64,000 bases of DNA, taken from assembly GCA_044892505.1 (NCBI GenBank), contig CM097884.1, positions 14,012,001 to 14,076,000 of the forward strand, read 5' to 3'. How positions within the stretch are numbered: the stretch's first letter is position 1; each line of letters starts with the position of its first letter. This document shows, one piece after another, positions 7,695 to 36,229 of the stretch. Source of the stretch: Schmidtea nova (Eukaryota). The translations under genes were made by a program, and so were the position numbers. The notes beneath the pieces were generated by a model. That model was not told the origin of the DNA and searched no databases. It saw only the letters and a program-made list of their open reading frames with translations.

Positions 7695-8024
7695 TTATTG
7701 TTTATAAAAAAACATTTTGATCTATAGTCATTATGAGAATTATTGATAATAATAATAAAAAAAGATCAAAGGTGAAAAAAGATAATTATGATATTATTAT
7801 TATGGTTATTGTTTATTTTTATTTTAATTATTATTATTTATTATTATTATTTATTATTTTATTATTAATATTATTATTTATTATAATTATTATTTATTAT
7901 TATTATGATATTATTATTATTGTTATTATCATAATTATCTTTTTTCACCTTTGATCTTTTTTTATTATTATTATCAATAATTCTCATAATGACTATAGAT
8001 CAAAATTTTTTTTTATAAACAATA

Positions 8025-12233: not shown

Positions 12234-13019
12234 TCATATTAAAAGGTTCTTCTCAAAGTCTATTCAAAGAGGAAATCTTAGAGACATGTAAATAGGCAAA
12301 CGTAATTTTATTGTTGAATAAAAATTATAATAACTTACCTTTTCAATAATTTATAAATATCTAAAAAATATATATTTATAAAATAATTAGATACTTAACT
12401 TAAAATATTAAATAAAATATGTAATCAAATTAAACTATGGTAAAACAGCTTTAAATTATGATTAAAAACATAATTAACAATAATTACTCACCATTTGCCT
12501 GTAATGAGTGTCTGTGACCCTTAACTACAGACTGTTGGTGTATTATGGAAAAAAGGTAACCATAGTATAACGTATTCAATCAGGTTGCCGGATAATGTCG
12601 AATAAACGAGAACCCTAAAAATTTATGAAATTTTAAAATTCTGTATAGAAATTTTAATTATACTGTTGGATCCACCATTTGGTCCACATTTAGCATAAAA
12701 AATAATAATAATAAGAGAGAAAATAAGAATAAATTAAAATAAATATAATTATGAAAATATCAGTAAAAACGAATTAAAATGTAATAAAGAATATTAATTT
12801 AATATAAAAAAATTGGAAGAAAATAAATGTATAATGTAAAAACGTTAAAGAAAATGATATTTAATTATATTTAAATAATAAGAAAGCGAAATAAATAAGT
12901 AAAAAAGAAGAAGAATTAATAAAAATTCGATAAATTAAAACCAGAAAATGCAAATCATATTTGCTAATAAAATTGATTTTATTTTTAATAGAATTGCATT
13001 GATGACCATCAGATTGATG

Positions 13020-13056
13020 CTGATTGGTCAATGAACTGATCTGGTCAGTATAAATA
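13020..13056 (+). promoter_or_regulatory. LTR promoter: inverted CCAAT (CTGATTGGTCAAT) plus TATAAATA
   Basis: The same pair of motifs, in the same order, occurs in the divergent family-2 LTR (39310-39273, minus). Copy in the 3' LTR at 29768-29804. Confidence 0.65.
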
Positions 13057-14289
13057 CTGATCCAGATTCAGATATTTTTAATGTTTTTGTGATTGAAAAA
13101 TTTTTTCTTTGTATTGCTATATACAAACTTTGGAAACTAATAGGTATGAGTATTTTTGTTTTATTGAATTTATAAATTTTATGATTATCTGTCATTGACC
13201 ATTGTAGTTAATTATTAATAAAATATTTTATGATATATGATTTTTAAATTTTTGTCGAGTATAGAATTAAACCCAGCTTCTTCCACTGTGAAATCAGTGG
13301 AAGGAGATGACTATATTTATATATTATATATCTTTTATTAAGCTTCTTCCATCGTGTAATCGGTGGAAGGAGGTAACAGTATCAGTTTATACTAACAACT
13401 AACAAGTATATTTTTTAGAAGTAATTTTTGGGTCGAGCTTCTTCCACTGTGTAATCAGTGGAAGGAGGCGTATATATATTATCTATATACCGTATTTATA
13501 GTATAAAATTACGTATGATTTAAGGGGCTCCGTTCACCGTGCAATCGGGAACATGGAGGCATACTGTGCCGAGTAGAAACGACTGCTCCGTACAGTTAGG
13601 CCGTCCGACCGGTGTAAAGCGCCGTGACGAGGGTAGGAATGTTATTTTTGATTTCTAACCTTATTTTTCACTGGATAGTATAACCAGTTGAAGTTTTATT
13701 TTCTAACCGATTTAGTTTTTCATGAGTGTATAGTTAAATTGAGTTTTGATTTTAGTTGGATACAGATGTAACTGCGATTTGAGTAATCTGATTTTACCTT
13801 GAGATTCACAGAGTGTTAGCGTACATTTTTCGATGGTCACATCTGGGGTTTGTGGGCATAGAGCGGCAGATACACGGTTAAGAATCTGTACAAAATATAA
13901 TTTTAATAACAACATAAAAATCGATAATGCTAACAACGTAGTGATCTACTACGCAAGTAACATAGCAGCAATAGGCTATAGGTTCAAACATTCCACCTAA
14001 ATAATTAAACATAATTGCTTATCCTGAACCCTGTACATAGGGCAGTGGATCTTAGTTTATTTTAATAACTTTCTTATCCTGAATGCTGTATATAGCACAG
14101 GCGTAACTAAATAAAATGCATTATGAAATAAATGTATCTGATCGCTGTATATAGCGACAGTGTTGAAAGCGTAATAGGTACATCATTTTCTTTTCCTAAA
14201 TTAACAATTACCAATTGTCAAAAGTATGAGAATCGTTCGAATCAAGACTACTAATTTCATGTTAATAAACCAATTTCGAATTTTAGAAA

Positions 14290-14880
14290 ATGTCAGCCAA
14301 CACAGCAACTAACCAAGCCGAATTAGACAAAGCATGGAGAATAATCCGCAGCCTCGAAAAGGAAATGCTGCGAAAATCAGAGAAAATAAAAGAAGCCGAT
14401 GGAATAATTACCAACCTAAAGAAAAGCTGGTTCAGTCCAGAACAAATGAAAATGCAAATCACCAAAACTCAACGCTCACAGCGAGCTAACAGCGAACTGC
14501 AAATGGAATTGGACGCAACGAAGATGGAATTAAAGAAATGCCTAAAATCTGTAACGGCATCATATCTAACTCAAGAGCTCAGCCAGCTCATTCGACCAAT
14601 CACTTATCAGCATTGGGCTGACGAAAAGGCAGGATGCTCAAAAGGAACAAGCACAGAGGAACCATCTCAGGTTCAAGCAACGGCGGCCTCCATCACACCA
14701 AAGGACGTAATAATTCCAGAAGTCAAGAAGAAAAAGAAGAGTAAGATGGGCGCACGTCAGCGACGCTGGAAGAAACAAGTTCTTCAGCAATTGGCTCAAC
14801 AATCCAAAGAAATTCCAGAAATTGATTTGAACATGAATTTTGCAATATCAGATGAAGATATTACCAAATACTTTGAATAG
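14290..14880 (+). CDS. LTR-encoded 196-aa coiled-coil protein with basic K/R motif (ORF-B)
   Basis: Intact ORF with TTTTAG|AAAATG immediately upstream; homologous to 36976-37575 and 43738-44199. Confidence 0.8.
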   Translation: MSANTATNQAELDKAWRIIRSLEKEMLRKSEKIKEADGIITNLKKSWFSPEQMKMQITKTQRSQRANSELQMELDATKMELKKCLKSVTASYLTQELSQLIRPITYQHWADEKAGCSKGTSTEEPSQVQATAASITPKDVIIPEVKKKKKSKMGARQRRWKKQVLQQLAQQSKEIPEIDLNMNFAISDEDITKYFE

Positions 14881-15194
14881 GAATTTTGTGATTTGTAAAT
14901 TTTGCTTATTAAATAATTTTTGTTTTGTATTTATCTTATTGTAAAGTATATGAACTAAAGTATTTTATTAAAGGATTTTTAAATTAAATTAAATGTAGAT
15001 TATAAATAAAAGATTGACATAAAGTAATGAACAATAATAGCATTAAAGAAATAACATATCGTAAAAATATTATTTGTTGATATTGTAAAGAAGGGGGCTG
15101 AAAGAAAGTTGAAAGTGGAAATATATTGTAACGAAAGGGGGCGAAAAGAGATAATTGAAATGAAAGATAATGGATGCGGATAGATTAAAATTAA

Positions 15195-15390
15195 AGCGTA
15201 AGTCCTTCTATCGGCAGCGAGACGAACCCGTGAACATAAATGGGGAGTAGTTTTAGCAATAGAGCTCACCTGCCCATCATTGTTCAAACACCTTGCACAT
15301 TTCCAACTCGATTATTACAGGGAAATGATCGAGGGTGCTCGTGTGATATGTAAGCATTTTATGTGAGGTTTTGGATGGAGGAATCCCTAG
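15195..15390 (+). ncRNA. Conserved structured RNA element near the LTR 3' end (copy in 3' LTR at 31943-32138)
   Basis: Alignable to 36668-36858 (-) and 44396-44572 (+) with compensatory base-pair changes (see findings). Confidence 0.6.
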
Positions 15391-15458
15391 AGCGTTTAAG
15401 AATAATTATTAATTTTGTATTTTTGTTTTAACCCAATCCGAAACCAACAACATAAATT

Positions 15459-15476
15459 TGGGGGCTCAGCCGGGAA
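15459..15476 (+). promoter_or_regulatory. Primer binding site, tRNA-Pro type
   Basis: TGGGGGCTCAGCCGGGAA, close to the canonical tRNA-Pro PBS TGGGGGCTCGTCCGGGAT; located 9 nt after the LTR end. Confidence 0.8.
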
Positions 15477-15915: not shown

Positions 15916-16377
15916 ATGAACGACAAATTAAAAGAAATAGAAGAATTCTTAAACACTGAAAACAAAACATACGATGAACTATGCGAGAAAATAAGTCGAA
16001 TAAGAGAATCCGGATTCAAAGAACCCATGACACAAACCGAAGAGACAACAGAGCTGATAAAAATAATGGAAAGAGTTGACAAAATAGATATTACTACTAG
16101 ATATAAATGGTACCAAGCGAGATTGGAAAACGCTGAGTTAAATATAAAATGCAGACAGCTAGAGCAACAATTAACTTCAACATACAACAAGTGGACGATA
16201 CAAGGAACTGAGACAGCTAAGAAATTTAAACTATGTTACATATGTCGAGAAAGGGAGAATAAAATCATGTTTTTACCATGTGGACATTTTCGGTTTTGTG
16301 GAATCTGTGCAGCCAATTGCGACAAATGCCCGATGTGCAATCTCGAAATAGACGAAAGAATTATTGTGTATTTATAA
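15916..16377 (+). CDS. Coiled-coil + C-terminal IAP/MDM2-type C3HC4 RING protein (153 aa)
   Basis: CYICRERENKIMFLPCGHFRFCGICAANCDKCPMCNLEIDERIIVYL at the extreme C-terminus; TTTAG|CAATG upstream. Confidence 0.85.
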   Translation: MNDKLKEIEEFLNTENKTYDELCEKISRIRESGFKEPMTQTEETTELIKIMERVDKIDITTRYKWYQARLENAELNIKCRQLEQQLTSTYNKWTIQGTETAKKFKLCYICRERENKIMFLPCGHFRFCGICAANCDKCPMCNLEIDERIIVYL

Positions 16378-16418
16378 TAAATAAATTTTGAAATTGAATA
16401 ATATGATTTGTGATAAAG

Positions 16419-16590
16419 GATAATGAGAATTAAGATGACAATTCATAATGAGAATTAATATGAGAATTCATAATGAGAATTGATATGAGAATTCATAATA
16501 GGAATTAATATGAGAAAGGATAATGAGAATTAATATGATACTTGATAATGAGAATTAATAATGAGAATTTAAAATGAGAGTTGATAATGG
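16419..16590 (+). repeat. 12-13-bp minisatellite (ATGAGAATT core)
   Basis: Direct reading. Confidence 0.85.
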
Positions 16591-17029
16591 CAATGACAGA
16601 AATCATAATAACAATTGATATTTATAAATAATTTTTGAGCTGCTCACGAGTAGTCCGTTAAGCACCCATTGGGAGGAACCAACTGATCAACTTACCCGAG
16701 ATGTATAGAAAGGGGCCCATCGCGGATATTGGAAAGCTTTTGTGATGTGACTGATCACCACATCTTGCATTAGTAGACCAATGCGATCTTTTTGTATATT
16801 TTGGTTGGGGTGAAAGGTAGGGACAATCTAATGAGGTTTAAGTGCATGCAGAAAATACAAATAAAAATGAGAGAATAGAACACTGATCAGTGAAAGTCGA
16901 AAGAACATTAAGAAAATAAGTGGAATGAAAGTTAATGTGATAACTCTCATAACAATAGAGATAATTCAGCTGAATGATAACTAGTGAAGTGGATAATTGC
17001 GGTTAACCGGTTAAAGAGATTAGTTAAAT

Positions 17030-17725
17030 ACCTTGTATAAAAAGGTCAAGGGCAAATAAGCCATATTAGTTACTCTGAAAGAAGGGTCAAGGGCAAATAA
17101 GCCATATTAGTTACTCTGAAAGAAGGGTCAAGGGCCAACGAGCCGTATTAGTTAATTACTCTGAAAGAAGGGTCAAGGGCCAACGAGCCGTATTAGTTAA
17201 TTACTCTGAAAGAAGGGTCAAGGGCCAACGAGCCGTATTAGTTAATTACTCTGAAAGAAGGGTCAAGGGCCAACGAGCCGTATTAGTTAATTACTCTGAA
17301 AGAAGGGTCAAGGGCCAACAAGCCGTATTAGTTAATTACTCTGAAAGAAGGGTCAAGGGCCAACGAGCCGTATTAGTTAATTACTCTGAAAGAAGGGTCA
17401 AGGGCCAACGAGCCGTATTAGTTGAATACTCTGAAAGAAGAGTCAAGGGCAAACAAGCCAGATGAGTTAAATACCTTGTACAAAAAGGTCAAGGGCCAAC
17501 GAGCCATATTAGTTGAATACTCTGAAAAAAGAGTCAAGGGCAAACAAGCCAGATGAGTAAATACCTTGTACAAAAAGGTCAAGGGCCAACGAGCCATATT
17601 AGTCAAATACTCTGAAAGAAGAGTCAAGGGCAAACAAGCCATATTAGTTAAATACCTTGTAAAAAAAGGTCAAGAGCAAACAAGTCAGATTATTTAAGAT
17701 TACCCCGAAAGAAGGGTCAAAGGCC
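17030..17725 (+). repeat. 41-46-bp tandem array (~16 units; core unit 45 bp)
   Basis: ACTCTGAAAGAAGGGTCAAGGGCCAACGAGCCGTATTAGTTAATT recurs at 17113, 17158, 17203 and onward. Confidence 0.95.
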
Positions 17726-18584
17726 TAACTAAGCAGGTGATTATTCTCTAAGAAGGTATTTTCCCTAGAGAAGGGCCATGGAGTCAAGCGAATAAATTAA
17801 ATTAGGGCATAGAAGAGCCAAGTGAATAAGTGAATAAATTAGAGAAGAGCCAAGTGAATAAATTAAATTATGGCGTAGAGAGCCAAGGGAATAAATAAGC
17901 AACAGAGATGAAATAAAACCAAGTTGTAATCGTCGACGATGTTAAGAGTAATGAGCACTAGAAATTAAGTAATACGAGTAAAGATGATTAAGTAAACTAG
18001 AGATTCAGTATGCATACGAGTAGAAATAGGAATAAGAGAAATTAGAGTTGACCGGAAAAACCGGTAGAAATAGTGAGAATAATGAATAATGATGAGAAAT
18101 TAGAGATGACTGGAAAATTTGATAGGAATAGTGAGAATAGTGAGTAATGATGATATAATGAATAGTGATAAAATGATAATTGAGTCAGGAGAACTCAAGG
18201 GAATTAAAGCGTTTGAGCGACAAATTAAATTGGGAGACTGAGGGAAAAGTAACGAATTTATTTGATAACGATAGATAATTATTACGACCATATAGATAAT
18301 TGTTACCAGTGAATAGATAATTTAAATAGACTTAAATAAAGGGGAAACCGGGAATGGGGAAACAATGGAAACCCAATAATGAGGAATAAAAGCGCAACGA
18401 TAACAATGATGTATCGTTGAAGTGACTTTTTAATTTAGATATACGGAACAGAACAAGTCAAACAACCAGCCAATCAATCAGAATACGATAACAGAGAAAC
18501 AGAAAAATTGATAAATCAAAGAAAAGTAAACCGAGATCAAGAACAGTTAAAAATCAAGAAGTCAATAATTCACAAAGAAATAAA

Positions 18585-21500
18585 TTGAGATCAAGAGCAG
18601 TTAGTGCTACAATCGAAAAAGTTGATAATTCACAGAGAAATAAATCGAAACAAAGAGCAACCAGTGCTACAAAGAAAACAAATCCTAAAGGAAGTAAATC
18701 AAGAAGAGTAATAGTAGAAAAGTCAAAAGTCGAAAACAGTAAATTTGCTAAAACTAACGAAAGTGAAACAGAAGAAAGTTTAAGTGAAACCTACGATAAG
18801 TATAATAATACGGAAGCATCAGATAACGAGTCAATAAACACAGAAGAAGTAGAAGCAGAAATTGATAATAATTCAAACGAAACGAATAACGAGCATACTA
18901 GTGAAACAAGAGGAAACGAGAGTAAAACGACTCAAGACAGCGGAATTGAAATGAACGAGCATAAAGAAGAAATCAAAGATAAATTTACTGGAGAACCATT
19001 CAATGGAGATGCCAGCAAGTTAGAAACGTTCTTAAAAGAATTTGGTATATTTGTAGAAGTGTGTAAATGGAAACCAGAAACGATAAGAAGCAGAATTCAG
19101 TTATATTTAAAAGACAGTGCGTTAGACTTATATTTAGAAGCTAAAAATTCGGATGATCAACTCGATAGTTGGGAAAAGATAAAGAATTTTTTCCAGCAAA
19201 CGTTTGGAATAAATAAAGTATTAAATGAAGCGTTTACAGAATTTTCAATGAGGAAACAAAAAGTTAATGAATCAAATGCAGTATATGCAAGTGAATTAAA
19301 GAAATTGGCTAAATTGGCATTTAATCAAAATAGTCCAATGAGTCCAGAATTAATGGCAGCAATTTTTGTGGGGGGATTGAGAAGACCCGATATAAGAGCA
19401 CAAGTTGGATGCCAAGGTTGTAAAACAATAGATGAAGCGTTGGAAATCGCTAACAGATTTGAATTACATATGATCGGAAGTGAAGGAAGAATTTACCTAG
19501 CAATGGATACGACACAAAATGAACAAGCAATGAAGATAAACAATCATATTCCGAATTCACAACAATTAAACCGACCACCACCTCAAAGGAGAAATGAGGG
19601 AAACAAAGTACAAAATTTCGGAAACCAAAATAATTATAATACGCAAGGACAGACAAAGCAATGTCAAACCTGTGGAAAGTTAGGACATTGGCAACAAGAA
19701 TGTTTCGCGAATTTAAATTGTAAAAAGTGTGGAAGAAAAGGACATTCGGAAAGTAGATGTTACCTGAATTCATGTTATAACTGTGGACAACCAGGTCATA
19801 TGGCAAAGAATTGCCAACAACAAAACAACCAACAAAGGAATTGGTCGAACAACGGAAATCGACAAAGTTATGCGAATCAACAGAATAACGGAAACCGTCA
19901 GAATTATGAAAATCAACAGAGTAATTATAACCAGAACAAAAGTACCACCAAAGAGATACATTTATTACAAGAAGTTCAGAGATTGACAGAGTTAATAAAC
20001 AATACACCGAGAGGAAATCAACAAACGAATCAACAACAAATGAATATGATGAGAAAAGTAGAAAGTGAAAATGAACGACTAAACCGAGAAAGTCAAGCAC
20101 GACATGCTCAAGAATGGGCAAGAATACAAAGAGAAGACGAACAGAAACGACAAGAAAGAGAACGACAACCATTGAGAATTAATATGATGAGAGCAGCGAA
20201 TCAAACAAGAGATAACAAAGAAGATATTGAACCAGAAACAAACCAGATAAACCCAAATCCGGAAGATGAAGAAAACCAAAAAGAAAAAGTACAAGAAAAC
20301 GAAGAAGATATTGAACAAAAAAGGATGTTGGTAGTCATGCCAAACGATCATGTATTTCGATTTGAATATGATGAAAAAGAGGAAGTAGAAGTATTAATTA
20401 ATAAAGTAAACAAGACGATTCCGGGAACGACGAAACTACCCCGAGAAGCATTCTTACAGACAGAAGACGAAGCAGCAATAAAATTAAAACCAACTGACAT
20501 ATGGAAAGATTTAGGAGTACCAATGAATAAAATGAAAGTCACAGTTATCCAAGAAATAGAAGAAAATAACGATGAAGAGAAATCAAAACCAGTAACAAAA
20601 GTCAAAAGTAGAGCATTGAAGATATTTGAAGAGAAAATCAAACAGAGAAAAGCAATGGAGATAGAAAAACGAAGAGGCCAAATAGAAGAATCAGGAAACA
20701 ATGACAAAAAGGAAGAAATACCACCAAACAGTATACCAGAAAACTATGAACTTAGACGATGTAGAAGTATGGATCCGCAAGGAGATTCACTCACAATTGC
20801 AGTCATGTCATCAAATACAGGACCAGTATTAACTACAACCATAGAAATAAATGGAAAAGAAATAGAAGCGATGATAGATACAGGAGCAAACATTTCGGCG
20901 ATAGATGTTAAATGGATACCGCAAGAACAGAGACAAGAAATTGAAAGAACAAATGTTCATGTAATAGCATGTAGTAAAGAGATTGTTGAAGTTGCAGGAA
21001 GATGGTGGGTAAAAATACGACACCAAAATATAGAAATCGAAACGTATGTAGCAGTAATACCAGCTTTAAGCGTACCATGTATAATCGGAACAGATTTAAT
21101 GCCAACACTATTCAAAGAAATAATCATCGATCTTGGAACAATGAGATTAAAGGACAGAACAGGGAAAATATGTGCCATGAAAACAAAAGTAATAAACTCG
21201 AAACAAATAATGATACCGGAAGAGAGAATCATGACGAGATCACAAACCATCAGAATAAATATGCTCAGAGCGGAAGAAATTAACACAACTAGTCAAGTAG
21301 ACAGTGAGAAAATCGATGTTGACAAAGAAATCGTACGGAAAGCCAAAGAAATAAACGAAAGATGGGAAATCAGACAAGAAAAAGACGTATTATGGGATAT
21401 ACGACAAATAATTAGTGATTACGCACGAGGATGCCCAACCAAACCAATCATAATAGAATTATTAAAGAAAATACCAGAGATACTCGTATTACAAGATACA

Positions 21501-24500
21501 GGAGGTGCAACTGCACTGCACAATGCCATAAGTTGGGGTAAAACAGAAAAGGTAAAAGAATTCTTGAAAATAGCAAAAGAAACGAATCAAAATCTAGACA
21601 TTGTAAATCGAGAATTAGAAACGCCAATGATGACAGCAACACTAAGCTTAGCAGATAAAGAAATAGTAGATATGCTGATTAACGCAGAATTCAACTGGAC
21701 AGCTCGGGATAGAAGAGGAAACACAGTTTTAAATCATGCAATAATGAGTGAAAATCAAATGATACTAAAACATATAACAACCAACCTCACATGGGAAATC
21801 GATGAATTAATCAAAGGAGAAATTATGAAGGAAGCGATTCGGAAAGGAAACACTAAAACAATATGGAAACTAATACAATGGAAATGGCCGGATAATAAAA
21901 CATGGGTATTAGATATAAACAAAGAATTTAGCGAAGGACAGAATGCACTATTGAGATACTTATTAGAGTTTACGTGCGATCAGAGAACGATGTTAGCACT
22001 AATAAATAGAGGAAAAATAAATATTAGTAAAAACGAAGAGGAATATAAACTAGAAGTTGAAAAGAAAGCTTTATTCAGGAAAATTTGGGTATGGTGTCAA
22101 AAACAAATACGCAAAGACATAAGCTACAAAAATCTAAATGATTTCCAAGAAAAGTATAAGATAATAATAAAGGAATACAAGAAGCTAGTGGAGATATTAA
22201 ACGATCCAGAAAAATTTAATCAAGCAATAAATCAGAAAGAAGAAGAAAGTAAAAGGATACTCACACCATTGTTCAACGCGAAGATAGATTATCAAGAAAG
22301 ATTGGATGCAATACACAAAAAAGCAAAGGAACTATTACCAGAATTCAAAGATACTAAATACGCCTTGGAAATACTAGGCGCGATAGTAGAAAAAGTACAC
22401 GCGTACGCGAAAGGAATGTATAATGGAGATGATATAATAACTATAAAAAGAGAAATGCCAGTTGCGTTTTTATTAACAAAAGAAAGAATAATACCGATTC
22501 ATAGAGCATTGAGAGCAGGAAAAGACGGTAAAGTAATCGAAATCGCAAGATTAATGCATCAATGTGGATGTGATATGAATATGATAGATGAAAAAGGAGA
22601 CACCCTTATGGTATACGCAGCAAGAGCAAAAACAAAAATCAAAGTATTAGAAGAGTTATATAAAGCAGGCGCAGGATTAATCGGAAAAACTGTCAAAGAC
22701 AACTCAATATTAGACGTGACATTATTAGGTCCAAATTGGGAAATGTTGAATTTCATTAAAACGATAACAAACCAAGAAGAGATAGATTATTTAACAGAAA
22801 CCGTAAAAAGACCAAGTGTATTGACAATGATGCAAAACATCAAATTGACAGAAGAAGTATTAAACTGGAAAATACCAAATACAAATAAACCAGCATTTAA
22901 AGTTAACAAGTTTATGGAGAATAATCGAAATTGGTGTATCCAAAGCGCACTAATAACTTATATATGGCCTGAAATTGTAGAAATTTTCATGAGAAGAGAA
23001 GACCTGAGATTTACAAACAAGCCTAAAGAAACGGAAAAGGTAGTCAAATGGAAAGAACTGATGAGAACACACCTTCAAAGTTGGATAAAAGCCAAGAAAG
23101 AAATTATACAGTATCAGTTAGACAACAAAAAGATACCCGAAGATATAGAATTCCAAGAATTTGAAGCAAGTAACTTAACCTCATTATATTATGCAAAACT
23201 AATAGAAACAAGTAATGTCGAGGACGACATTTTTAACGAGCCAGGGAGAGATAATAATACTGACAAAGACGATGACGATGAAGAAAACAATGACGACGAG
23301 AGAAATAAAGACGATGATGATGAAAATAATCACGGAAACCCAGATAACCACGAGCAAACCAACAAAGAAGACGAGAATCAAGAGAGAAATACAAAGAACC
23401 AAGAATCCAAAGAACAAAGAGAAGACAACCCTAAAAACAATCATGAAAACAAAGGAACAAGTTACAGAAGGAATCCATTATTCAGACCAGAAGTATTAAT
23501 GTTCGCAATAATCATAACACTTATGGGACAATGTGAAGCAACGAAACAAGAGATATCAGTAGAAATGGGAGTACCAATACAAAAAGCATCAACACAGATA
23601 ATGAATTCAAAGGATATTGAACAAGTATGTTGGGTAAAAGAGAATGAAATTCTCGGAGATAACAACCTATTACGATGTATAATACCAAACCCCGAGCGAA
23701 AAACTATAATAATAGACGAAATGGACATGGAAACATGGTACAGAATATGTACAATCAGAAAACCTAAAGACGAAAAATCACACAAGACAGTTACATGCCA
23801 AGTATACAAGACACCCAAAGTTCGATACGAGTTCGCCAATGGAATAGACCTTCCAGGACCATTTTATTTTAAAATAACAAGAGAACCAGCATCAAGAAAA
23901 GTCTTACAACAACCAAGAACCAAGATAACAACACCAAGTATAAGGAATACAACGGATAAACCAGAAACAAACAGAAGAAATACAACGGATAAACCAGAAC
24001 CAAAAAGACGAACGAAACAAACCACAAGAGTAATCTATAATTCCAAGTTGTTATGTATAGCACTTATTATGACAATACTGAAGCGATTAGAAGAAGGAAT
24101 AGAAATGGATACGATGACACTAATAGACATGGAAGAGACACAAATAACAAATCAAAAATGTTGGTTTAGAAATGATGAAAAATTAGAATTAAAGGAATCA
24201 AGAGAAATTCGAAAATTAGAAGCGGGTAAAACGAACAAAGTAATCAAGATAATAAAGATAAAAACAGACAGAATTCATAAACTATGTTTATTGGAAAAAG
24301 AGAGAAACAAGAAAGGAATAACCAATTGTAAAACATTCCAAGCAGGGAAAATAATAACGTTCGCAAGAAAAATGGGGAAAAGAAACAAACAAAATTTCCA
24401 GAAATTAACCATAACGTTAGAAATAACGGGAATAGAACAAAACGTAAACGGAGTATGCTGGAGAAAATACGAGAAAGAAGCAAATAAACACAAATCATCA

Positions 24501-25463
24501 CAATGTCAAACAATCAGAGGAACAACTGCAGTACAAATAAAAAGCTTAGAAAGAAATCAAACGTATGAAATATGCCTAGTAAAAGAAAATGATCAAATAA
24601 CGAAAGAAGATTTAGAATGCAGAATATACAGAGCACCGAACAGAATAAAAACCATTAAAGCAATACGAAAGAATAAAAGACAACAAAAACCGAAGCATAC
24701 CACTACCGAAAGTCAAACAGAACCAGAGAGGAAAACCTCAGCAACACTTATACTTTGGAAACTAGATAACAAAACAGTAGAAATATGTTGGACAATGATC
24801 AAGAAATATGAAGAAAGACAACCACAACAATGCGAAAAGATGAACAAAGAAGAGGAGATCAGAATTCAGAACCTACAATTGGACAAACAATACGAAATAT
24901 GCGCAATAGAAAAGGCAGATAAATTTGGAAACCAGCAAGAAAAATGTGGAAACTACTATACACCGACAAATACAACGATCAAAGGAAGAATCAAGAAACT
25001 AACTTTCGGAGAATTGAATCAAACAACGAAACAAATGGAAAACGAGGAAACAATAATAGATTCTTATGCACAATGGAAACCAGAAAAAGTAATCCAGGAA
25101 GTCAAAAGGAAACAACAAGAACGACAACAATTGGAACTCAAATTGAAAGGACAATATGGACCAATGATCAATCAAAGCAAATTCACCCAAATCAATGTTA
25201 ACAAGCAAGGAAGAGAATTAATCGGAGTAGGAATACTGGCAGTATGCGTACCAGTAATAATAATACTATCAATAATATGGCTATGGGACATAATAAAAAA
25301 GAAACCAACCAGACAATGGCCAGATATAAAGATTATGAATTGTAAAATCAAGATACCAGAAGAAGTAAAGAAAGAATTCCAAAGAAGAACCAAAGGCAAA
25401 GAATTTTGGAAGCAGATCGAAGACGAGGAGCGACACGATGAAAAGGCAGTGATGATAGTATAG
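18585..25463 (+). CDS. Gag(3xCCHC)-Ubl-like-aspartic protease-ankyrin-FN3-like-TM polyprotein (start uncertain; first in-frame ATG at 18951)
   Basis: Capsid-like FNGDASKLETFLKEF; CCHC x3 (19662-19814); MIDTGA...IIGTD protease (~20822-21150); ankyrin-like repeats (~21490-21780 and ~22490-22765); signal-like segment (~23490-23540); Cys-containing FN3-like repeats; TM segment (~25218-25286). Confidence 0.88.
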   Translation: MRSRAVSATIEKVDNSQRNKSKQRATSATKKTNPKGSKSRRVIVEKSKVENSKFAKTNESETEESLSETYDKYNNTEASDNESINTEEVEAEIDNNSNETNNEHTSETRGNESKTTQDSGIEMNEHKEEIKDKFTGEPFNGDASKLETFLKEFGIFVEVCKWKPETIRSRIQLYLKDSALDLYLEAKNSDDQLDSWEKIKNFFQQTFGINKVLNEAFTEFSMRKQKVNESNAVYASELKKLAKLAFNQNSPMSPELMAAIFVGGLRRPDIRAQVGCQGCKTIDEALEIANRFELHMIGSEGRIYLAMDTTQNEQAMKINNHIPNSQQLNRPPPQRRNEGNKVQNFGNQNNYNTQGQTKQCQTCGKLGHWQQECFANLNCKKCGRKGHSESRCYLNSCYNCGQPGHMAKNCQQQNNQQRNWSNNGNRQSYANQQNNGNRQNYENQQSNYNQNKSTTKEIHLLQEVQRLTELINNTPRGNQQTNQQQMNMMRKVESENERLNRESQARHAQEWARIQREDEQKRQERERQPLRINMMRAANQTRDNKEDIEPETNQINPNPEDEENQKEKVQENEEDIEQKRMLVVMPNDHVFRFEYDEKEEVEVLINKVNKTIPGTTKLPREAFLQTEDEAAIKLKPTDIWKDLGVPMNKMKVTVIQEIEENNDEEKSKPVTKVKSRALKIFEEKIKQRKAMEIEKRRGQIEESGNNDKKEEIPPNSIPENYELRRCRSMDPQGDSLTIAVMSSNTGPVLTTTIEINGKEIEAMIDTGANISAIDVKWIPQEQRQEIERTNVHVIACSKEIVEVAGRWWVKIRHQNIEIETYVAVIPALSVPCIIGTDLMPTLFKEIIIDLGTMRLKDRTGKICAMKTKVINSKQIMIPEERIMTRSQTIRINMLRAEEINTTSQVDSEKIDVDKEIVRKAKEINERWEIRQEKDVLWDIRQIISDYARGCPTKPIIIELLKKIPEILVLQDTGGATALHNAISWGKTEKVKEFLKIAKETNQNLDIVNRELETPMMTATLSLADKEIVDMLINAEFNWTARDRRGNTVLNHAIMSENQMILKHITTNLTWEIDELIKGEIMKEAIRKGNTKTIWKLIQWKWPDNKTWVLDINKEFSEGQNALLRYLLEFTCDQRTMLALINRGKINISKNEEEYKLEVEKKALFRKIWVWCQKQIRKDISYKNLNDFQEKYKIIIKEYKKLVEILNDPEKFNQAINQKEEESKRILTPLFNAKIDYQERLDAIHKKAKELLPEFKDTKYALEILGAIVEKVHAYAKGMYNGDDIITIKREMPVAFLLTKERIIPIHRALRAGKDGKVIEIARLMHQCGCDMNMIDEKGDTLMVYAARAKTKIKVLEELYKAGAGLIGKTVKDNSILDVTLLGPNWEMLNFIKTITNQEEIDYLTETVKRPSVLTMMQNIKLTEEVLNWKIPNTNKPAFKVNKFMENNRNWCIQSALITYIWPEIVEIFMRREDLRFTNKPKETEKVVKWKELMRTHLQSWIKAKKEIIQYQLDNKKIPEDIEFQEFEASNLTSLYYAKLIETSNVEDDIFNEPGRDNNTDKDDDDEENNDDERNKDDDDENNHGNPDNHEQTNKEDENQERNTKNQESKEQREDNPKNNHENKGTSYRRNPLFRPEVLMFAIIITLMGQCEATKQEISVEMGVPIQKASTQIMNSKDIEQVCWVKENEILGDNNLLRCIIPNPERKTIIIDEMDMETWYRICTIRKPKDEKSHKTVTCQVYKTPKVRYEFANGIDLPGPFYFKITREPASRKVLQQPRTKITTPSIRNTTDKPETNRRNTTDKPEPKRRTKQTTRVIYNSKLLCIALIMTILKRLEEGIEMDTMTLIDMEETQITNQKCWFRNDEKLELKESREIRKLEAGKTNKVIKIIKIKTDRIHKLCLLEKERNKKGITNCKTFQAGKIITFARKMGKRNKQNFQKLTITLEITGIEQNVNGVCWRKYEKEANKHKSSQCQTIRGTTAVQIKSLERNQTYEICLVKENDQITKEDLECRIYRAPNRIKTIKAIRKNKRQQKPKHTTTESQTEPERKTSATLILWKLDNKTVEICWTMIKKYEERQPQQCEKMNKEEEIRIQNLQLDKQYEICAIEKADKFGNQQEKCGNYYTPTNTTIKGRIKKLTFGELNQTTKQMENEETIIDSYAQWKPEKVIQEVKRKQQERQQLELKLKGQYGPMINQSKFTQINVNKQGRELIGVGILAVCVPVIIILSIIWLWDIIKKKPTRQWPDIKIMNCKIKIPEEVKKEFQRRTKGKEFWKQIEDEERHDEKAVMIV

Positions 25464-25585: not shown

Positions 25586-25921
25586 ATGAATGTACAAGGA
25601 GAAACAACCGAAATGACTATGACTATGCGATGGAAAGCACAATGTGAAACGTTAGTTCGATCAATTAATGCACTACAGAATCAATTGGTAGAGAAGCAAA
25701 ATATATTAGCAGATTGTTACAACAATATCTTTGAGCAGTTACATAAAATAGAAGAGCAACAGAAAATAATAACAGAACTAACCAGAGAGAATCAAAGATT
25801 GAGACAAACGATGGAAATAAATCAACTAACAAGAAGAGATGAATCAGAAGGTCAATGGCTAGATTGGGTAATAAATGGATTAGAGAATGATATAGAACCA
25901 GATTCAACGAGCGAACCATAG
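25586..25921 (+). CDS. 111-aa coiled-coil protein of unknown function
   Basis: Intact ORF, heptad-like pattern, TTTTAG|AAAATG upstream. Confidence 0.6.
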   Translation: MNVQGETTEMTMTMRWKAQCETLVRSINALQNQLVEKQNILADCYNNIFEQLHKIEEQQKIITELTRENQRLRQTMEINQLTRRDESEGQWLDWVINGLENDIEPDSTSEP

Positions 25922-26018
25922 TCAAATTGTAGCGGAAAATTGTATATATGTAAAAATAACAACTCTAGAAAAATCAAAAACAAAGAACAAATCAATGTAT
26001 GTATATATTATTGTAGAA

Positions 26019-27374
26019 ATGGATAAAGAGGAACGAGCAGTCGAGATTTTGAGAGCAGCAAACAGAAATTGGAACAAGAGATTTGTATGTGGATATTGTA
26101 ATAATTTATTACGGAAACCAAAGCAAACCGCCTGTGGATGTAGATTATGCACTAGATGTGTACAAATGTTAGAGTTAAAAGGAATAACAGAATGTCCAGA
26201 ATGTAAAGAAGGACAAATAGTGTTAGACGAAACGAGACCAGATAGAGCAACTCAGAGAGAAATCATGAGCATATTAATTGAATGTATAAATCCACCATGC
26301 ATATGGCAAGGACAAATCAGTGAAATTGAAAATCATATAGAAAATTGTGAAGAAAAGAGAAGCGAATGTGAAAAGTGTAAAGAAACGATAATTTTAAAAG
26401 ACAAAGAGAAACACAGAGATGAATGCAAAGAGGAAGAAATCGCATGTGAATATTGCGAAATTCGAGAAACAAGGAGAAAAATTGAAGAGGAGCACATCAA
26501 TATAAAAGAAGAGAAAATATGTGAACAGTATGTAGGAGTGTGCCCAAACAAATGTGAAATTACCGAAGAAGTGAAATTACGAGAACATTGGGAAAAGTGT
26601 ACAGAAATACCAAGAGAATGTCCTTACAACAGATATGGATGCAAGGAAAAGAAGTCTCAACAAAATATGAAACAACATTTAGAAACAGAAGCAATCAATC
26701 ATATTGAAATGACAGACAGAACAATTCAGAAATTGGAAAAAGAAGTGGAATCTCATAAAATAATGATGAACCTATTATTAGAAACGAGAGAACAGTTTGA
26801 ATTAACCCGAGGAAGGATGGAAAAGAAAATAATAGCCATCAAGGAATTAGCAAAAGGAATGAAAGTGCAATATAACAAGTTAATACAAGAAATTGATGAG
26901 AAAAAAGATTTACCAATAGCACCTTATGTGTGGAAAATAACGGATTTCCGAAATAAATTGGAAGATGCACGAAGCTTCAAGAAAACTGCGGTAATAAGCC
27001 CACCATTTTACTTATGGAAAAACGGGGCTAAAGTGAGATTGAAAGTATATCCAAACGGAGATGGGACAAGTATGGGAAAACACCTATCAATATTTTTTGC
27101 GTTTTGCAAAGGAGAATATGACGATTTAATCGATTGGCCGATAGGAGTAGGAGTAATGATAAAAATCAGGGGTTTAAACGAAACCATAGAAAAGAGATTC
27201 ACGACAGACAAAGGAGCAGTTACGAGTAACAGACCAACAGAAGAATGTGGATTAGCAAGTGGAGAACCACACTTTGTATTACAAAGCAAGATATGGGGAT
27301 TATTGTATGAGGACACCTTATACATAGAAATGGAAAGGAACGAAAAGGCAGATAGAAAAGGATGGTTGGCGTAG
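26019..27374 (+). CDS. Intronless TRAF-family protein (RING, zinc fingers, coiled coil, MATH/TRAF-C)
   Basis: RING CGYC...CGCRLCTRC...CPEC; TRAF zinc finger PDRATQREIMSILIEC..PCIWQGQISEIENHIENC; TRAF-C YVWKITDF...SPPFY...VYPNGDG..GKHLSIFF...GEYDDLIDWP. Start placed at 26019 (TGTAG|AAATG) rather than the track's 25995. Confidence 0.92.
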   Translation: MDKEERAVEILRAANRNWNKRFVCGYCNNLLRKPKQTACGCRLCTRCVQMLELKGITECPECKEGQIVLDETRPDRATQREIMSILIECINPPCIWQGQISEIENHIENCEEKRSECEKCKETIILKDKEKHRDECKEEEIACEYCEIRETRRKIEEEHINIKEEKICEQYVGVCPNKCEITEEVKLREHWEKCTEIPRECPYNRYGCKEKKSQQNMKQHLETEAINHIEMTDRTIQKLEKEVESHKIMMNLLLETREQFELTRGRMEKKIIAIKELAKGMKVQYNKLIQEIDEKKDLPIAPYVWKITDFRNKLEDARSFKKTAVISPPFYLWKNGAKVRLKVYPNGDGTSMGKHLSIFFAFCKGEYDDLIDWPIGVGVMIKIRGLNETIEKRFTTDKGAVTSNRPTEECGLASGEPHFVLQSKIWGLLYEDTLYIEMERNEKADRKGWLA

Positions 27375-27478: not shown

Positions 27479-28582
27479 ATGGGAAACGTCGAAATCAGTT
27501 TACAAGCAGTAACCGCACATCAAGATGAAGTTATTTGTGAGCATTTAGAACAAATTGAAAGTTGGATCCACGCATATTACCACAAACAAAAAGAAGTAGA
27601 AAGACAAGCCGAACAAATAACAGAAGCCAAAAGATTAAAGCAATTAAGTCAAGATAAAATAGACGAATTATATGAATTATTGGAGAAACAAAAAGAATAT
27701 TATAAAAAGATGATGAAAGAACGACGAGAAGAAAGAGAGCGAGAACGAACAGAAATGGAACGAAAAATGTACTCGATTACCGAGCAAGCAAGATATTGGA
27801 AAAAAGAAGCGAAAGAATCTTATACGAAAGCAAGAGAAATAATCGAAAGAACGGCGTACAGCGATGATTGGAAGTTATTTGAAGAAATCGATAAATTAAA
27901 AGAGGAATTAGAACAGAAAACCTATCAGGAAATATCGAGCAAGAAATGGAATATAAAGAGACAACAATTCATCAGAGAGCAAGCAGGAAAAATTAAACAA
28001 CTTCTGCACCAGATTGAAAGATCGGAAAGAGAATTATATTTCAGTAAACAACAATCCGATGCAAACCTCAGAGCAGGGATGCAGAAAGAGGAAGATATGA
28101 AGCGCGATATTAATGGTTATCAAGGAGTAATCACTCAAAAGAAGATAGAGTTAAAGAAAACTAAAGAAAGATTAGAAGAAACAAAACAAAGCTATGAAGA
28201 AAATTTATTAAAATTAGAAGAAGCAAAACAAAGCTATGAGGAAAATTTATTAAATCTAACCAAAGAAAATGAAGAGTTGAAACAAAAACTGATACAAAAA
28301 TTAACACCACCAAAAGAGACAGATATCACCAAAGCAGTAATAAAAATGATGGAAGAGGAAGAGAAAAACAATAAAATAACAGAATTAGAAAAACGGATCG
28401 AAGCGTTAACAGAACAATCAAATTATTTAGAATATCTGTTAGACGAAGAAATCCAATTATCACACTTCTATCGAGATGAAGTAACAATGTGGAGAAACAC
28501 GATAGTATGGTTACCACCCCCTACAAACCAAGTGGAACCTCAAGATGAAGGTTTTCACGAACCCAATGAGTCGTTAGTATAA
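27479..28582 (+). CDS. 367-aa long coiled-coil protein
   Basis: Intact E/K-rich ORF with internal repeat KQSYEENLL x2; TTATAG|AAAATG upstream. Confidence 0.7.
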   Translation: MGNVEISLQAVTAHQDEVICEHLEQIESWIHAYYHKQKEVERQAEQITEAKRLKQLSQDKIDELYELLEKQKEYYKKMMKERREERERERTEMERKMYSITEQARYWKKEAKESYTKAREIIERTAYSDDWKLFEEIDKLKEELEQKTYQEISSKKWNIKRQQFIREQAGKIKQLLHQIERSERELYFSKQQSDANLRAGMQKEEDMKRDINGYQGVITQKKIELKKTKERLEETKQSYEENLLKLEEAKQSYEENLLNLTKENEELKQKLIQKLTPPKETDITKAVIKMMEEEEKNNKITELEKRIEALTEQSNYLEYLLDEEIQLSHFYRDEVTMWRNTIVWLPPPTNQVEPQDEGFHEPNESLV

Positions 28583-28657: not shown

Positions 28658-29221
28658 ATGAAGAAGCTCGCAATACTGATAATCCTAAACGTAATCGAGA
28701 TCACCCAACAAAGAGAAGACCGTCCGATATTAAAAGAAAACCTACAAGTCTTACCCGAAAAAATCTATAAAGAAATAGATAATCTATTAAAAGAAGCAAT
28801 CAAAGAAATATCTCAAATTCAATTGTCAACAGCACCTAACCCAGTATCAACGCAACAAACCCTGTGCAAAATCAATAACAAATTAGAGAAGATTCGAAAA
28901 ACCTTAAAAGAAAGTAAAGAAACTATAAAGAATTTACATCGAGCAGAAATTCAATACCAAGAGAGATGGATCGTTGCGATTATAATCGTATTAACAATTA
29001 GTACAACAACCTGCGCAATTACCATTCTCATCGCAGTATATAGAATAAAGATCCTAAAACAAAAACAATCGATCATCAATCAAACAACAGCATACGATGA
29101 CAATGCCCGAAGACAAATGAGAAATCAGTTCAACAGAATACGAACCCAATACGAGTTACCAGCAATTCCACAGAACCAGTCCAATCCAGTGCGAGTTATG
29201 AACTATTTGTATAAACAATAA
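28658..29221 (+). CDS. 187-aa predicted type-I membrane protein
   Basis: Signal-like MKKLAILIILNVIE, coiled coil, TM WIVAIIIVLTISTTTCAITILIAVY, then basic stop-transfer RIKILK. Confidence 0.7.
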   Translation: MKKLAILIILNVIEITQQREDRPILKENLQVLPEKIYKEIDNLLKEAIKEISQIQLSTAPNPVSTQQTLCKINNKLEKIRKTLKESKETIKNLHRAEIQYQERWIVAIIIVLTISTTTCAITILIAVYRIKILKQKQSIINQTTAYDDNARRQMRNQFNRIRTQYELPAIPQNQSNPVRVMNYLYKQ

Positions 29222-29411: not shown

Positions 29412-32197
29412 TGTTGGATCCACCATTTGGTCCACATTTAGCATAAAAAATAATAATAATAAGAGAGAAAATAAGAATAAATTAAAATAAATATAATTAT
29501 GAAAATATCAGTAAAAACGAATTAAAATGTAATAAAGAATATTAATTTAATATAAAAAAATTGGAAGAAAATAAATGTATAATGTAAAAACGTTAAAGAA
29601 AATGATATTTAATTATATTTAAATAATAAGAAAGCGAAATAAATAAGTAAAAAAGAAGAAGAATTAATAAAAATTCGATAAATTAAAACCAGAAAATGCA
29701 AATCATATTTGCTAATAAAATTGATTTTATTTTTAATAGAATTGCATTGATGACCATCAGATTGATGCTGATTGGTCAATGAACTGATCTGGTCAGTATA
29801 AATACTGATCCAGATTCAGATATTTTTAATGTTTTTGTGATTGAAAAATTTTTTCTTTGTATTGCTATATACAAACTTTGGAAACTAATAGGTATGAGTA
29901 TTTTTGTTTTATTGAATTTATAAATTTTATGATTATCTGTCATTGACCATTGTAGTTAATTATTAATAAAATATTTTATGATATATGATTTTTAAATTTT
30001 TGTCGAGTATAGAATTAAACCCAGCTTCTTCCACTGTGAAATCAGTGGAAGGAGATGACTATATTTATATATTATATATCTTTTATTAAGCTTCTTCCAT
30101 CGTGTAATCGGTGGAAGGAGGTAACAGTATCAGTTTATACTAACAACTAACAAGTATATTTTTTAGAAGTAATTTTTGGGTCGAGCTTCTTCCACTGTGT
30201 AATCAGTGGAAGGAGGCGTATATATATTATCTATATACCGTATTTATAGTATAAAATTACGTATGATTTAAGGGGCTCCGTTCACCGTGCAATCGGGAAC
30301 ATGGAGGCATACTGTGCCGAGTAGAAACGACTGCTCCGTACAGTTAGGCCGTCCGACCGGTGTAAAGCGCCGTGACGAGGGTAGGAATGTTATTTTTGAT
30401 TTCTAACCTTATTTTTCACTGGATAGTATAACCAGTTGAAGTTTTATTTTCTAACCGATTTAGTTTTTCATGAGTGTATAGTTAAATTGAGTTTTGATTT
30501 TAGTTGGATACAGATGTAACTGCGATTTGAGTAATCTGATTTTACCTTGAGATTCACAGAGTGTTAGCGTACATTTTTCGATGGTCACATCTGGGGTTTG
30601 TGGGCATAGAGCGGCAGATACACGGTTAAGAATCTGTACAAAATATAATTTTAATAACAACATAAAAATCGATAATGCTAACAACGTAGTGATCTACTAC
30701 GCAAGTAACATAGCAGCAATAGGCTATAGGTTCAAACATTCCACCTAAATAATTAAACATAATTGCTTATCCTGAACCCTGTACATAGGGCAGTGGATCT
30801 TAGTTTATTTTAATAACTTTCTTATCCTGAATGCTGTATATAGCACAGGCGTAACTAAATAAAATGCATTATGAAATAAATGTATCTGATCGCTGTATAT
30901 AGCGACAGTGTTGAAAGCGTAATAGGTACATCATTTTCTTTTCCTAAATTAACAATTACCAATTGTCAAAAGTATGAGAATCGTTCGAATCAAGACTACT
31001 AATTTCATGTTAATAAACCAATTTCGAATTTTAGAAAATGTCAGCCAACACAGCAACTAACCAAGCCGAATTAGACAAAGCATGGAGAATAATCCGCAGC
31101 CTCGAAAAGGAAATGCTGCGAAAATCAGAGAAAATAAAAGAAGCCGATGGAATAATTACCAACCTAAAGAAAAGCTGGTTCAGTCCAGAACAAATGAAAA
31201 TGCAAATCACCAAAACTCAACGCTCACAGCGAGCTAACAGCGAACTGCAAATGGAATTGGACGCAACGAAGATGGAATTAAAGAAATGCCTAAAATCTGT
31301 AACGGCATCATATCTAACTCAAGAGCTCAGCCAGCTCATTCGACCAATCACTTATCAGCATTGGGCTGACGAAAAGGCAGGATGCTCAAAAGGAACAAGC
31401 ACAGAGGAACCATCTCAGGTTCAAGCAACGGCGGCCTCCATCACACCAAAGGACGTAATAATTCCAGAAGTCAAGAAGAAAAAGAAGAGTAAGATGGGCG
31501 CACGTCAGCGACGCTGGAAGAAACAAGTTCTTCAGCAATTGGCTCAACAATCCAAAGAAATTCCAGAAATTGATTTGAACATGAATTTTGCAATATCAGA
31601 TGAAGATATTACCAAATACTTTGAATAGGAATTTTGTGATTTGTAAATTTTGCTTATTAAATAATTTTTGTTTTGTATTTATCTTATTGTAAAGTATATG
31701 AACTAAAGTATTTTATTAAAGGATTTTTAAATTAAATTAAATGTAGATTATAAATAAAAGATTGACATAAAGTAATGAACAATAATAGCATTAAAGAAAT
31801 AACATATCGTAAAAATATTATTTGTTGATATTGTAAAGAAGGGGGCTGAAAGAAAGTTGAAAGTGGAAATATATTGTAACGAAAGGGGGCGAAAAGAGAT
31901 AATTGAAATGAAAGATAATGGATGCGGATAGATTAAAATTAAAGCGTAAGTCCTTCTATCGGCAGCGAGACGAACCCGTGAACATAAATGGGGAGTAGTT
32001 TTAGCAATAGAGCTCACCTGCCCATCATTGTTCAAACACCTTGCACATTTCCAACTCGATTATTACAGGGAAATGATCGAGGGTGCTCGTGTGATATGTA
32101 AGCATTTTATGTGAGGTTTTGGATGGAGGAATCCCTAGAGCGTTTAAGAATAATTATTAATTTTGTATTTTTGTTTTAACCCAATCCGAAACCAACA
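29412..32197 (+). repeat. 3' LTR (family 1)
   Basis: No differences from the 5' LTR seen by eye; all ORF-track translations in the two LTRs are identical. Confidence 0.95.
31038..31628 (+). CDS. ORF-B copy in the 3' LTR
   Basis: Identical translation to 14290-14880. Confidence 0.8.
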   Translation: MSANTATNQAELDKAWRIIRSLEKEMLRKSEKIKEADGIITNLKKSWFSPEQMKMQITKTQRSQRANSELQMELDATKMELKKCLKSVTASYLTQELSQLIRPITYQHWADEKAGCSKGTSTEEPSQVQATAASITPKDVIIPEVKKKKKSKMGARQRRWKKQVLQQLAQQSKEIPEIDLNMNFAISDEDITKYFE

Positions 32198-34489: not shown

Positions 34490-34605
34490 ATATACGATTT
34501 CGATTGTTAGCGTCTATTGACTCATTCCTCGGCCGATAAAGCGATCGTTAACGCGACACAATTGGCCCAGGATAATGCTTGCACTTGTTTAATTATATTG
34601 ACTCG

Positions 34606-35570: not shown

Positions 35571-35659
35571 TCTCTCGATCATGCCGTTAGTTTGAGGATG
35601 GTATGCGGTAGGTCTGAGATGTTGAATTACTAGTTTCAAAGTTAAATGTTGGAATAATT

Positions 35660-36160: not shown

Positions 36161-36229
36161 TGTGTGTTCGAAAATTTTTTTCTACCACTATTTTAAAAAA
36201 TTTCCCTCCCCAATTACAACAAATACATT

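What the first reader, a model, noticed from the sequence alone, without database searches (positions are those of the whole stretch)
18585..25463. Gag-protease fused in frame to ankyrin repeats and an FN3-like type-I membrane domain where RT-RH-IN should be
Seen: one uninterrupted ~6.9-kb frame. After the protease come two ankyrin-like clusters (GATALHNAI, GNTVLNHAI, GDTLMVYAA), an acidic linker, an internal signal-like segment (VLMFAIIITLMGQCEA), four repeats of CW..(I/L)xxL...YxIC...CxxYxP, and a TM helix. A second hydrophobic stretch (LLCIALIMTIL) makes the topology uncertain. Inference: the FN3-like part may be an env substitute or decoy receptor made from the gag polyprotein, unlike classical retroviral or errantiviral fusion proteins.
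Basis: partly seen in the sequence, partly recalled or inferred. Interest (0 to 1): 0.85.

Follow-up and report, generated by a model that had tools for sequence, protein, structure and literature searches.

The report
Stripped-down giant retroelement with FN3 tail
This young copy of a giant virus-like jumping gene has lost both its envelope part and its copying enzymes through two clean in-frame deletions, so the ankyrin repeats and the predicted fibronectin-type membrane domain that its whole family carries at the end now follow the protease, and it likely spreads by borrowing enzymes from relatives.

Summary
The ORF and its motifs are real. It lies in a 19.5-kb LTR element with identical LTRs, a 4-bp target duplication and a tRNA-Pro primer site. 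The tail did not replace RT-RH-IN or env. In complete copies the order is Gag, env module, protease, RT-RH-IN, ankyrins, signal, four FN3-fold repeats, TM: the Burro layout. This copy lacks the env module (5,385 nt) and pol (3,021 nt), both in frame. Of 85 classified loci in G000, 8 have both modules, 53 env only, 11 pol only, 13 neither; all four classes are young and recombine freely. Two sister subfamilies are mostly complete (30 of 40). FN3 fold is supported for repeat 4 (AlphaFold, Foldseek, VIA Z 8.2); the tail is under purifying selection and is duplicated in one sister subfamily. Best reading: a non-autonomous Burro-type derivative mobilised in trans; the FN3 protein is likely a second, non-fusogenic surface glycoprotein.

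The parts
12660..12663 (.). left 4-bp target-site duplication (repeated at 32198-32201)
12664..15449 (+). 5' LTR, TG...CA, identical to the 3' LTR; holds a 196-aa ORF (14290-14880) and three short hairpin repeats (13275-13477)
15459..15475 (+). primer-binding site complementary to the 3' end of a host tRNA-Pro(TGG)
15916..16377 (+). accessory ORF, C3HC4 RING finger (no BIR match)
16386..17756 (+). 25-bp and 45-bp tandem repeat arrays of the 5' leader
18492..25463 (+). polyprotein ORF, stop to stop; first ATG 18951
18951..19820 (+). Gag capsid region and three CCHC knuckles (19662-19820)
20734..20740 (+). junction where the 5,385-nt env module of complete copies is absent (short direct repeat, in frame)
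20835..21107 (+). retropepsin protease, intact DTG
21200..21217 (+). junction where the 3,021-nt RT-RH-IN segment is absent (imperfect direct repeat, in frame)
21411..21962 (+). ankyrin block 1
22395..22964 (+). ankyrin block 2, paralogue of block 1
23217..23474 (+). acidic low-complexity linker
23490..23540 (+). predicted internal signal peptide
23574..23822 (+). FN3-like repeat 1
24048..24080 (+). second short hydrophobic helix, conserved, resembles a degenerate signal
24093..24350 (+). FN3-like repeat 2 (degenerate)
24390..24641 (+). FN3-like repeat 3
24720..24971 (+). FN3-fold repeat 4 (modelled)
25218..25283 (+). transmembrane helix followed by a lysine-rich start of a conserved tail
25586..25921 (+). 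111-aa accessory ORF, 60% identical in the sister subfamily
25995..27374 (+). intronless TRAF gene (RING, TRAF zinc fingers, MATH)
27479..28582 (+). coiled-coil accessory ORF
28658..29221 (+). small membrane-protein accessory ORF
29412..32197 (+). 3' LTR

Best explanation
The ORF is the polyprotein of a young Burro-type giant Ty3/gypsy element from which the env module and the RT-RH-IN segment are both missing in frame, so the family's own ankyrin and predicted FN3-membrane tail now follows the protease, and the copy likely moved by co-packaging with a pol-carrying relative. Shown: the module order in complete copies, the two deletions, the four module classes, their youth and their recombination. 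Inferred: the deletions arose by reverse-transcriptase template jumps between short direct repeats; this RNA makes its own Gag and protease, primes on tRNA-Pro and borrows RT and integrase in trans; the protease releases the ankyrin protein in the cytosol at a recurring I/M-N-M-L/M word; the internal signal threads the FN3 repeats into the ER, giving a type-I glycoprotein on the cell or particle surface. Its most likely job (about 0.45) is binding a host surface partner as an accessory, non-fusogenic protein that works beside the real fusion protein.
For: Pol-carrying copies read protease-RT-RH-IN-ANK-tail in one frame; env-carrying copies hold PF24664 at E 4e-68 before the protease. Module sizes 5,385 and 3,021 nt, both multiples of three, in 5 of 5 and 4 of 4 copies measured. 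85 of 92 junction-tagged loci classified: 8 env+pol, 53 env only, 11 pol only, 13 neither. LTR pairs found for 27 of 30 copies tested, 26 differing by 0-0.6% in all four classes; 19 of 30 with a 4-bp target duplication, including 6 of 10 double-deleted copies. Two env junction types and two pol breakpoints, all in frame, all sparing protease and tail; no GT at the 5' borders, so not splicing. Classes intermix on trees and four-gamete conflict reaches 63% within 300 nt; the FN3 half of this copy is 0.1% from an env-carrying copy while its ANK half is 2% or more from all 33 others. Short-read unitigs bridge both junctions (one study, possibly the source of the assembly). Repeat 4 models at pLDDT 79; Foldseek and VIA top lists are almost all FN3 (best E 0.02, TM 0.5-0.6; Z 8.2, rmsd 2.7, 76 aligned); feature search on repeats 3-4 returns fn3 clusters at 0.89-0.91. 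dN/dS against a sister subfamily 0.11-0.16 for ANK, 0.22-0.30 for the repeats, about 0.2 for TM and tail.
Against: No expression, cleavage, topology or particle data. FN3 scores are individually modest: no Foldseek hit at E 0.001, Z at the level the tool calls common, Pfam fn3 only 2 of 15 repeats at best E 0.13, low recognition value. The whole-ectodomain model is poor (mean pLDDT 45; repeat 1 at 70-80, repeat 2 under 40). The second hydrophobic helix has the same 19-residue hydropathy as the proposed signal (1.48 against 1.51), so topology is not settled. Because classes recombine, low dN/dS among double-deleted copies (0.12-0.22) does not show that this class itself is under selection. No Burro1 sequence was on hand for a direct comparison.
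Confidence: 0.85

Rival explanations
1. Division of labour: the subfamily is turning into a multipartite element. Env-only and pol-only genomes complement each other, and pol-less copies set the Gag(Env):Pol ratio that other retroelements set by frameshift or splicing.
For: Only 8 of 85 loci are complete; env and pol are in repulsion among the 72 pattern-classified loci (odds ratio 0.21, p 0.009, copies not independent); four separate junctions are all in frame and keep the protease; frequent recombination implies shared particles; env dN/dS 0.07 between subfamilies.
Against: Complete copies still exist and are as young as the rest. Two sister subfamilies thrive without these deletions: 30 of 40 loci picked by the tail motif are complete, none shows either junction. 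Plain parasitism gives the same copy ratios (PMC10924933, abstract seen: 85% non-autonomous).
Confidence: 0.2
2. One reading: the FN3-TM part is an env substitute put in place of pol.
For: In this copy it is the only large membrane ectodomain; 24 of 85 loci lack env and keep it.
Against: It coexists with a true fusion glycoprotein in 61 of 85 loci and in 30 of 40 sister loci, and follows integrase wherever pol is present. Its matches are adhesion and receptor domains, not fusogens.
Confidence: 0.05
3. The FN3-TM protein is a host-manipulating decoy or interference receptor on the producing cell, one more cargo beside TRAF, RING, BCL2-like and ankyrin parts, and never enters a particle.
For: Signalling and cell-death cargo surrounds it; the repeats evolve faster than pol, Gag or env (dN/dS 0.22-0.30 against 0.01-0.07) and vary in number (4 against 7); the cytosolic tail is the most conserved part within the family (0.05).
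Against: No host paralogue or ligand identified. This concerns function only and is compatible with the deletion history.
Confidence: 0.35

Closest known systems
Burro1-4 / GYPSM1 giant gypsy-like elements of planarians (PMC6431247, section 7 read in full; Burro1 B-IAP through passages of PMC13465017; the primary papers were not held)
   Same: One huge ORF (complete copies about 5,100 codons by adding module lengths; 4,873 and 5,140 aa reported), Gag with three knuckles, BCL2-like stretch then env in frame before the protease, ankyrins, MATH/TRAF and RING cargo, tandem repeats in the leader.
   Different: This copy lacks env and pol. TRAF is a separate ORF downstream of the polyprotein. No BIR match. 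A signal-FN3-TM module at the C-terminus and a four-class presence/absence pattern are not mentioned in the section read.
TR-GAG non-autonomous LTR elements of plants (PMC4350172, abstract seen)
   Same: LTR element with Gag, no RT or integrase, apparently still mobile.
   Different: TR-GAG are under 4 kb with Gag only; this is 19.5 kb with protease, ankyrin, FN3-TM and five accessory ORFs, and it recombines with its helpers.
Bovine ERVK[2-1-LTR] C-type and D-type elements (PMC10924933, abstract and section list seen)
   Same: A small competent minority and a majority of trans-complemented defective copies in an active clade.
   Different: D-types lack functional genes; here the defective classes keep open, constrained frames and lose whole modules cleanly.
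FN3 arrays of type-I surface proteins (fibronectin, sDscam, receptor phosphatases, contactin)
   Same: Seven-strand sandwich fold of repeat 4.
   Different: 8-21% identity; invariant C-W and a C...C pair; made from a retroelement polyprotein; no sequence homologue among 1.84 billion representatives.

Membership tests
Burro / GYPSM1 | giant LTR element with one polyprotein of about 5,000 aa | tested here: met
   Met for complete copies: 2,323 + 1,795 + 1,007 codons; the window copy is the reduced form.
Burro / GYPSM1 | env in frame between Gag and protease | tested here: met
   PF24664 E 4e-68 before the protease; 61 of 85 loci. Absent from the window copy by deletion.
Burro / GYPSM1 | BCL2-like motif before env | tested here: inconclusive
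   All 37 PDB hits are Bcl-xL chains at the right place, but best E is 0.28.
Burro / GYPSM1 | ankyrin repeats and MATH/TRAF cargo | tested here: met
Burro / GYPSM1 | BIR domain (B-IAP) | tested here: inconclusive
   The upstream ORF gives RING only, no BIR; other copies were not scanned for BIR.
Burro / GYPSM1 | dUTPase-like segment between protease and RT; SUMO-like domain | not tested
   A spacer of about 170 aa lies there; only a sub-threshold ubiquitin-like hit (E 0.2).
Burro / GYPSM1 | RT phylogeny or identity with Burro1 | not testable with these tools
   No Burro1 sequence was returned by any search.
Ty3/gypsy LTR retroelement | PR-RT-RH-IN order, TG...CA LTRs, tRNA primer site, short target duplication | tested here: met
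   Order in pol-carrying copies; ends, PBS-Pro and 4-bp duplication in the window.
FN3 domain | seven-strand beta sandwich matching FN3 structures | tested here: met
   Repeat 4 only; repeats 1-3 by homology and a weak model.
FN3 domain | Pfam fn3 gathering score | tested here: not met
   2 of 15 repeats, best E 0.13.
type-I membrane protein | cleaved signal, lumenal ectodomain, one TM, cytosolic tail | tested here: inconclusive
   TM hydropathy 3.0, seven N-glycan sequons, Lys after the TM; second hydrophobic helix unresolved. No SignalP or DeepTMHMM here.
env / viral fusion protein (for the FN3 part) | match to a fusion-glycoprotein family or fold | tested here: inconclusive
   None listed in Pfam or fold searches; the family's real fusion protein is a different segment.
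TR-GAG | under 4 kb with a Gag-only ORF | tested here: not met
   19.5 kb, several ORFs.

The most novel reading that the evidence does not exclude
A retroelement with two surface glycoproteins cut from one polyprotein (a fusion protein and an FN3 attachment or decoy protein) that is splitting into complementary env-only and pol-only genomes which share particles: a retrovirus-like element caught becoming multipartite, with the window copy as the recombinant free-rider.
Probability: 0.2. Interest if true: 0.82.

Novelty: new variant of a known kind. Interest (0 to 1): 0.5.

Why it matters
It removes the apparent oddity (a cargo replacing pol) but leaves two points for specialists. First, Burro-type polyproteins end in a conserved signal-FN3-TM module, so they encode a second predicted surface protein beside env, which bears on whether these elements are infectious. 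Second, one young subfamily exists as four recombining module classes with 9% complete copies, while its sisters stay mostly complete: a natural comparison for how env loss, defective genomes and trans-complementation evolve, with class-specific junctions that can be counted in RNA.

Tried and rejected
Splicing as the source of the deletions: no GT at either 5' border. Assembly artefact: 13 double-deleted loci at different places, own target duplications, unitigs across both junctions. Homologue searches for the tail: one generic ankyrin protein, nothing for the FN3 part; not proof of absence. The env search gave five unnamed relatives at 35-46%, one fused to a protease. Rfam on LTR and leader: only a chance hit, E 0.48. 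No RNA holder listed, which says nothing on expression. PDB profile searches with the repeats gave only weak FN3 hits (E 0.4-1.5). The ectodomain model was too weak for a fold search. Module lengths had an offset error; one search is the corrected one. Dropped before the class count: 7 of 92 loci (4 at about 80% identity, sister level; 3 truncated). Literature; no held paper had retrotransposon, gypsy, ankyrin, polyprotein and fibronectin type III together; the Burro primary papers and their supplements were not seen and may describe the tail.
Full report
Observation. The frame is open from 18492 to 25463 (2,323 codons) and holds every motif quoted. Pfam finds zinc knuckles, a retropepsin and ankyrin repeats, and no RT, RNase H or integrase. 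The two ankyrin blocks are paralogues. The four CW repeats are paralogues by a leave-out HMM test; a profile of all repeats finds nothing better than E 1.2 in the rest of the window.

The element. The ORF lies between two identical LTRs (12664-15449 and 29412-32197) with TG...CA ends and a 4-bp target duplication. The primer site at 15459-15475 is complementary to a tRNA-Pro(TGG) that occurs in a tandem array in G000. Accessory ORFs encode a RING finger, a whole intronless TRAF, a coiled coil, a small membrane protein and a 111-aa protein; the four downstream ones are 51-66% identical in a sister subfamily. The family is high-copy: the 40 scored hits of each of two searches were 96-100% identical.

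What the other copies show. I fetched 40 of the 60 distinct loci from those searches. Most share the window sequence only from the protease on. Upstream they carry an env module ending in a viral fusion glycoprotein (PF24664, E 4e-68) preceded by a weak Bcl-xL-like stretch (best E 0.28). Others carry RT, RNase H and integrase between the protease and the ankyrins, in the same frame. The complete order is therefore Gag, env module, protease, RT-RH-IN, ankyrins, signal, FN3 repeats, TM. The window copy lacks 5,385 nt of env module and 3,021 nt of pol, both whole numbers of codons. The borders are short imperfect direct repeats with no GT at the 5' side, which fits template jumps during reverse transcription (inference) and not splicing.

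Four classes. Genome-wide pattern searches for the four junction states tagged 92 loci; 72 were classified by position and 13 more after fetching the other 20; 7 were dropped (4 sister-level, 3 truncated). Result: 8 with both modules, 53 env only, 11 pol only, 13 neither. These are lower bounds, since mutated junctions escape the patterns. There are two env crossover types, each found with and without pol, and a second, older pol breakpoint in 4 loci, in frame in the one translated. LTR pairs were found for 27 of 30 copies tested; 26 differ by 0-0.6%, in all four classes, and one by 1.3%; 19 of 30 show a 4-bp target duplication. Over the tail the classes intermix on trees, four-gamete conflict rises from 41% under 100 nt to 63-73% beyond, and the window copy is a mosaic. 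The simplest reading is that RNAs of different classes share particles and recombine (inference). In 27 of the 33 other copies examined the frame covering the tail is intact, 6 of 8 among double-deleted ones. Unitigs from short-read runs of one study bridge both junctions.

Sister subfamilies. A C-terminal motif of the tail occurs 361 times in G000. Of 40 sister loci chosen from the first 100 listed by motif variant, without regard to pol, 30 have env, protease, pol and tail in order; none has either junction of this subfamily; three have other, larger deletions and seven are interrupted or fragments. All 10 sister loci chosen by pol also carry env. One sister subfamily has the signal-FN3-TM module twice in tandem, seven repeats and two TM helices, which shows that the module is a unit.

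The FN3 part. Repeat 4, folded with an alignment of ten repeats, gives a beta sandwich at pLDDT 79. Foldseek's list is dominated by FN3 domains (best E 0.02, none at 0.001), as is the independent VIA search (Z 8.2, rmsd 2.7, 76 aligned), and a language-model feature search on repeats 3-4 returns fn3 clusters (weak by its own caveats). Pfam fn3 stays below threshold. The whole ectodomain models poorly (pLDDT 45), with strands in the repeats and helices at the signal, the second hydrophobic stretch and the TM. No sequence homologue was found outside G000. Against a sister subfamily dN/dS is 0.11-0.16 in the ankyrin region (block 1 saturated), 0.22-0.30 in the repeats, 0.21-0.23 in TM and tail, against 0.01 for pol, 0.04 for Gag and 0.07 for env. 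The tail is constrained but is the fastest-changing part.

How it likely works. In complete copies the polyprotein would cross the membrane four times: signal-env-TM, then cytosolic protease, pol and ankyrins, then signal-FN3-TM. Removing either module keeps that alternation intact, which may be why only in-frame deletions sparing the protease spread (inference). A recurring I/M-N-M-L/M word sits after Gag, at the start of the env module and at the start of the tail; both pol breakpoints keep the last one; I take it as a likely protease site, untested. The second hydrophobic helix resembles the signal of the duplicated module in the sister subfamily and is only 11 residues, so I expect it to pass into the lumen, but its hydropathy equals that of the signal and topology is open. 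The window copy can supply Gag and protease and has its cis signals, and needs RT and integrase from a pol-carrying copy.

Comparison. The layout matches Burro/GYPSM1 as described in PMC6431247 (section 7 read in full), where ankyrin, TRAF, BCL2-like and in-frame env are all on record; 'fibronectin' does not occur in that paper. It works like TR-GAG (PMC4350172, abstract) or bovine D-type ERVs (PMC10924933, abstract) in being non-autonomous yet mobile, but is neither. Membership in Burro rests on architecture; no direct sequence test was possible. The host is probably a planarian-type flatworm on that architecture alone. Earlier notes of this scan report a pol-less copy, twin ankyrins and the cleavage word in other elements of this genome; none was found for the FN3 module.

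Verdict. Real, but not a replacement of pol or env: a doubly deleted, recently inserted derivative of a known kind of element. The new points are the conserved FN3-membrane module and the four recombining module classes. Interest 0.5.

Noticed in passing
window 15447-15452 and 32195-32197; loci L081-L140: The right end of the element is joined to host DNA at either of two CA dinucleotides 3 nt apart: 9 short and 10 long ends among 19 copies with a target duplication.
   Followed up: partly
window 18492-18950: 153 open codons precede the first ATG in all 5 copies of this subfamily shown and a similar stretch in both sisters: a non-AUG start or a spliced leader is possible.
   Followed up: no
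L145:6420-9887: A sister subfamily carries the signal-FN3-TM module twice in tandem (7 repeats, 2 TM helices) in 18 of the 40 sister loci scanned.
   Followed up: partly
L152:3561-9887: A sister copy with a 2,108-codon open frame joining Gag and a ubiquitin-like region directly to the FN3 repeats, a different large in-frame deletion.
   Followed up: no
window 13275-13477 and 30023-30225: Three spaced copies of a 42-nt hairpin-like repeat in each LTR; no Rfam match.
   Followed up: partly
window 14290-14880 and 31038-31628: A 196-aa ORF inside the LTR, no convincing Pfam match.
   Followed up: no
window 2817-7728: Two Penelope-type RT (one with GIY-YIG) ORFs in a 1.9-kb inverted arrangement.
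   Followed up: no
window 34603-40269: An element bounded by about 320-bp inverted repeats, holding a 200-bp piece 81% like the LTR at 36668-36868.
   Followed up: no
window 46908-48944: A 678-codon uninterrupted adaptin (AP complex large subunit) frame, probably a host gene.
   Followed up: no
L181 (G000:C1, about 459.6 Mb): A tandem tRNA-Pro(TGG) array with a 308-bp period; the pattern matches 1,102 places in G000.
   Followed up: partly
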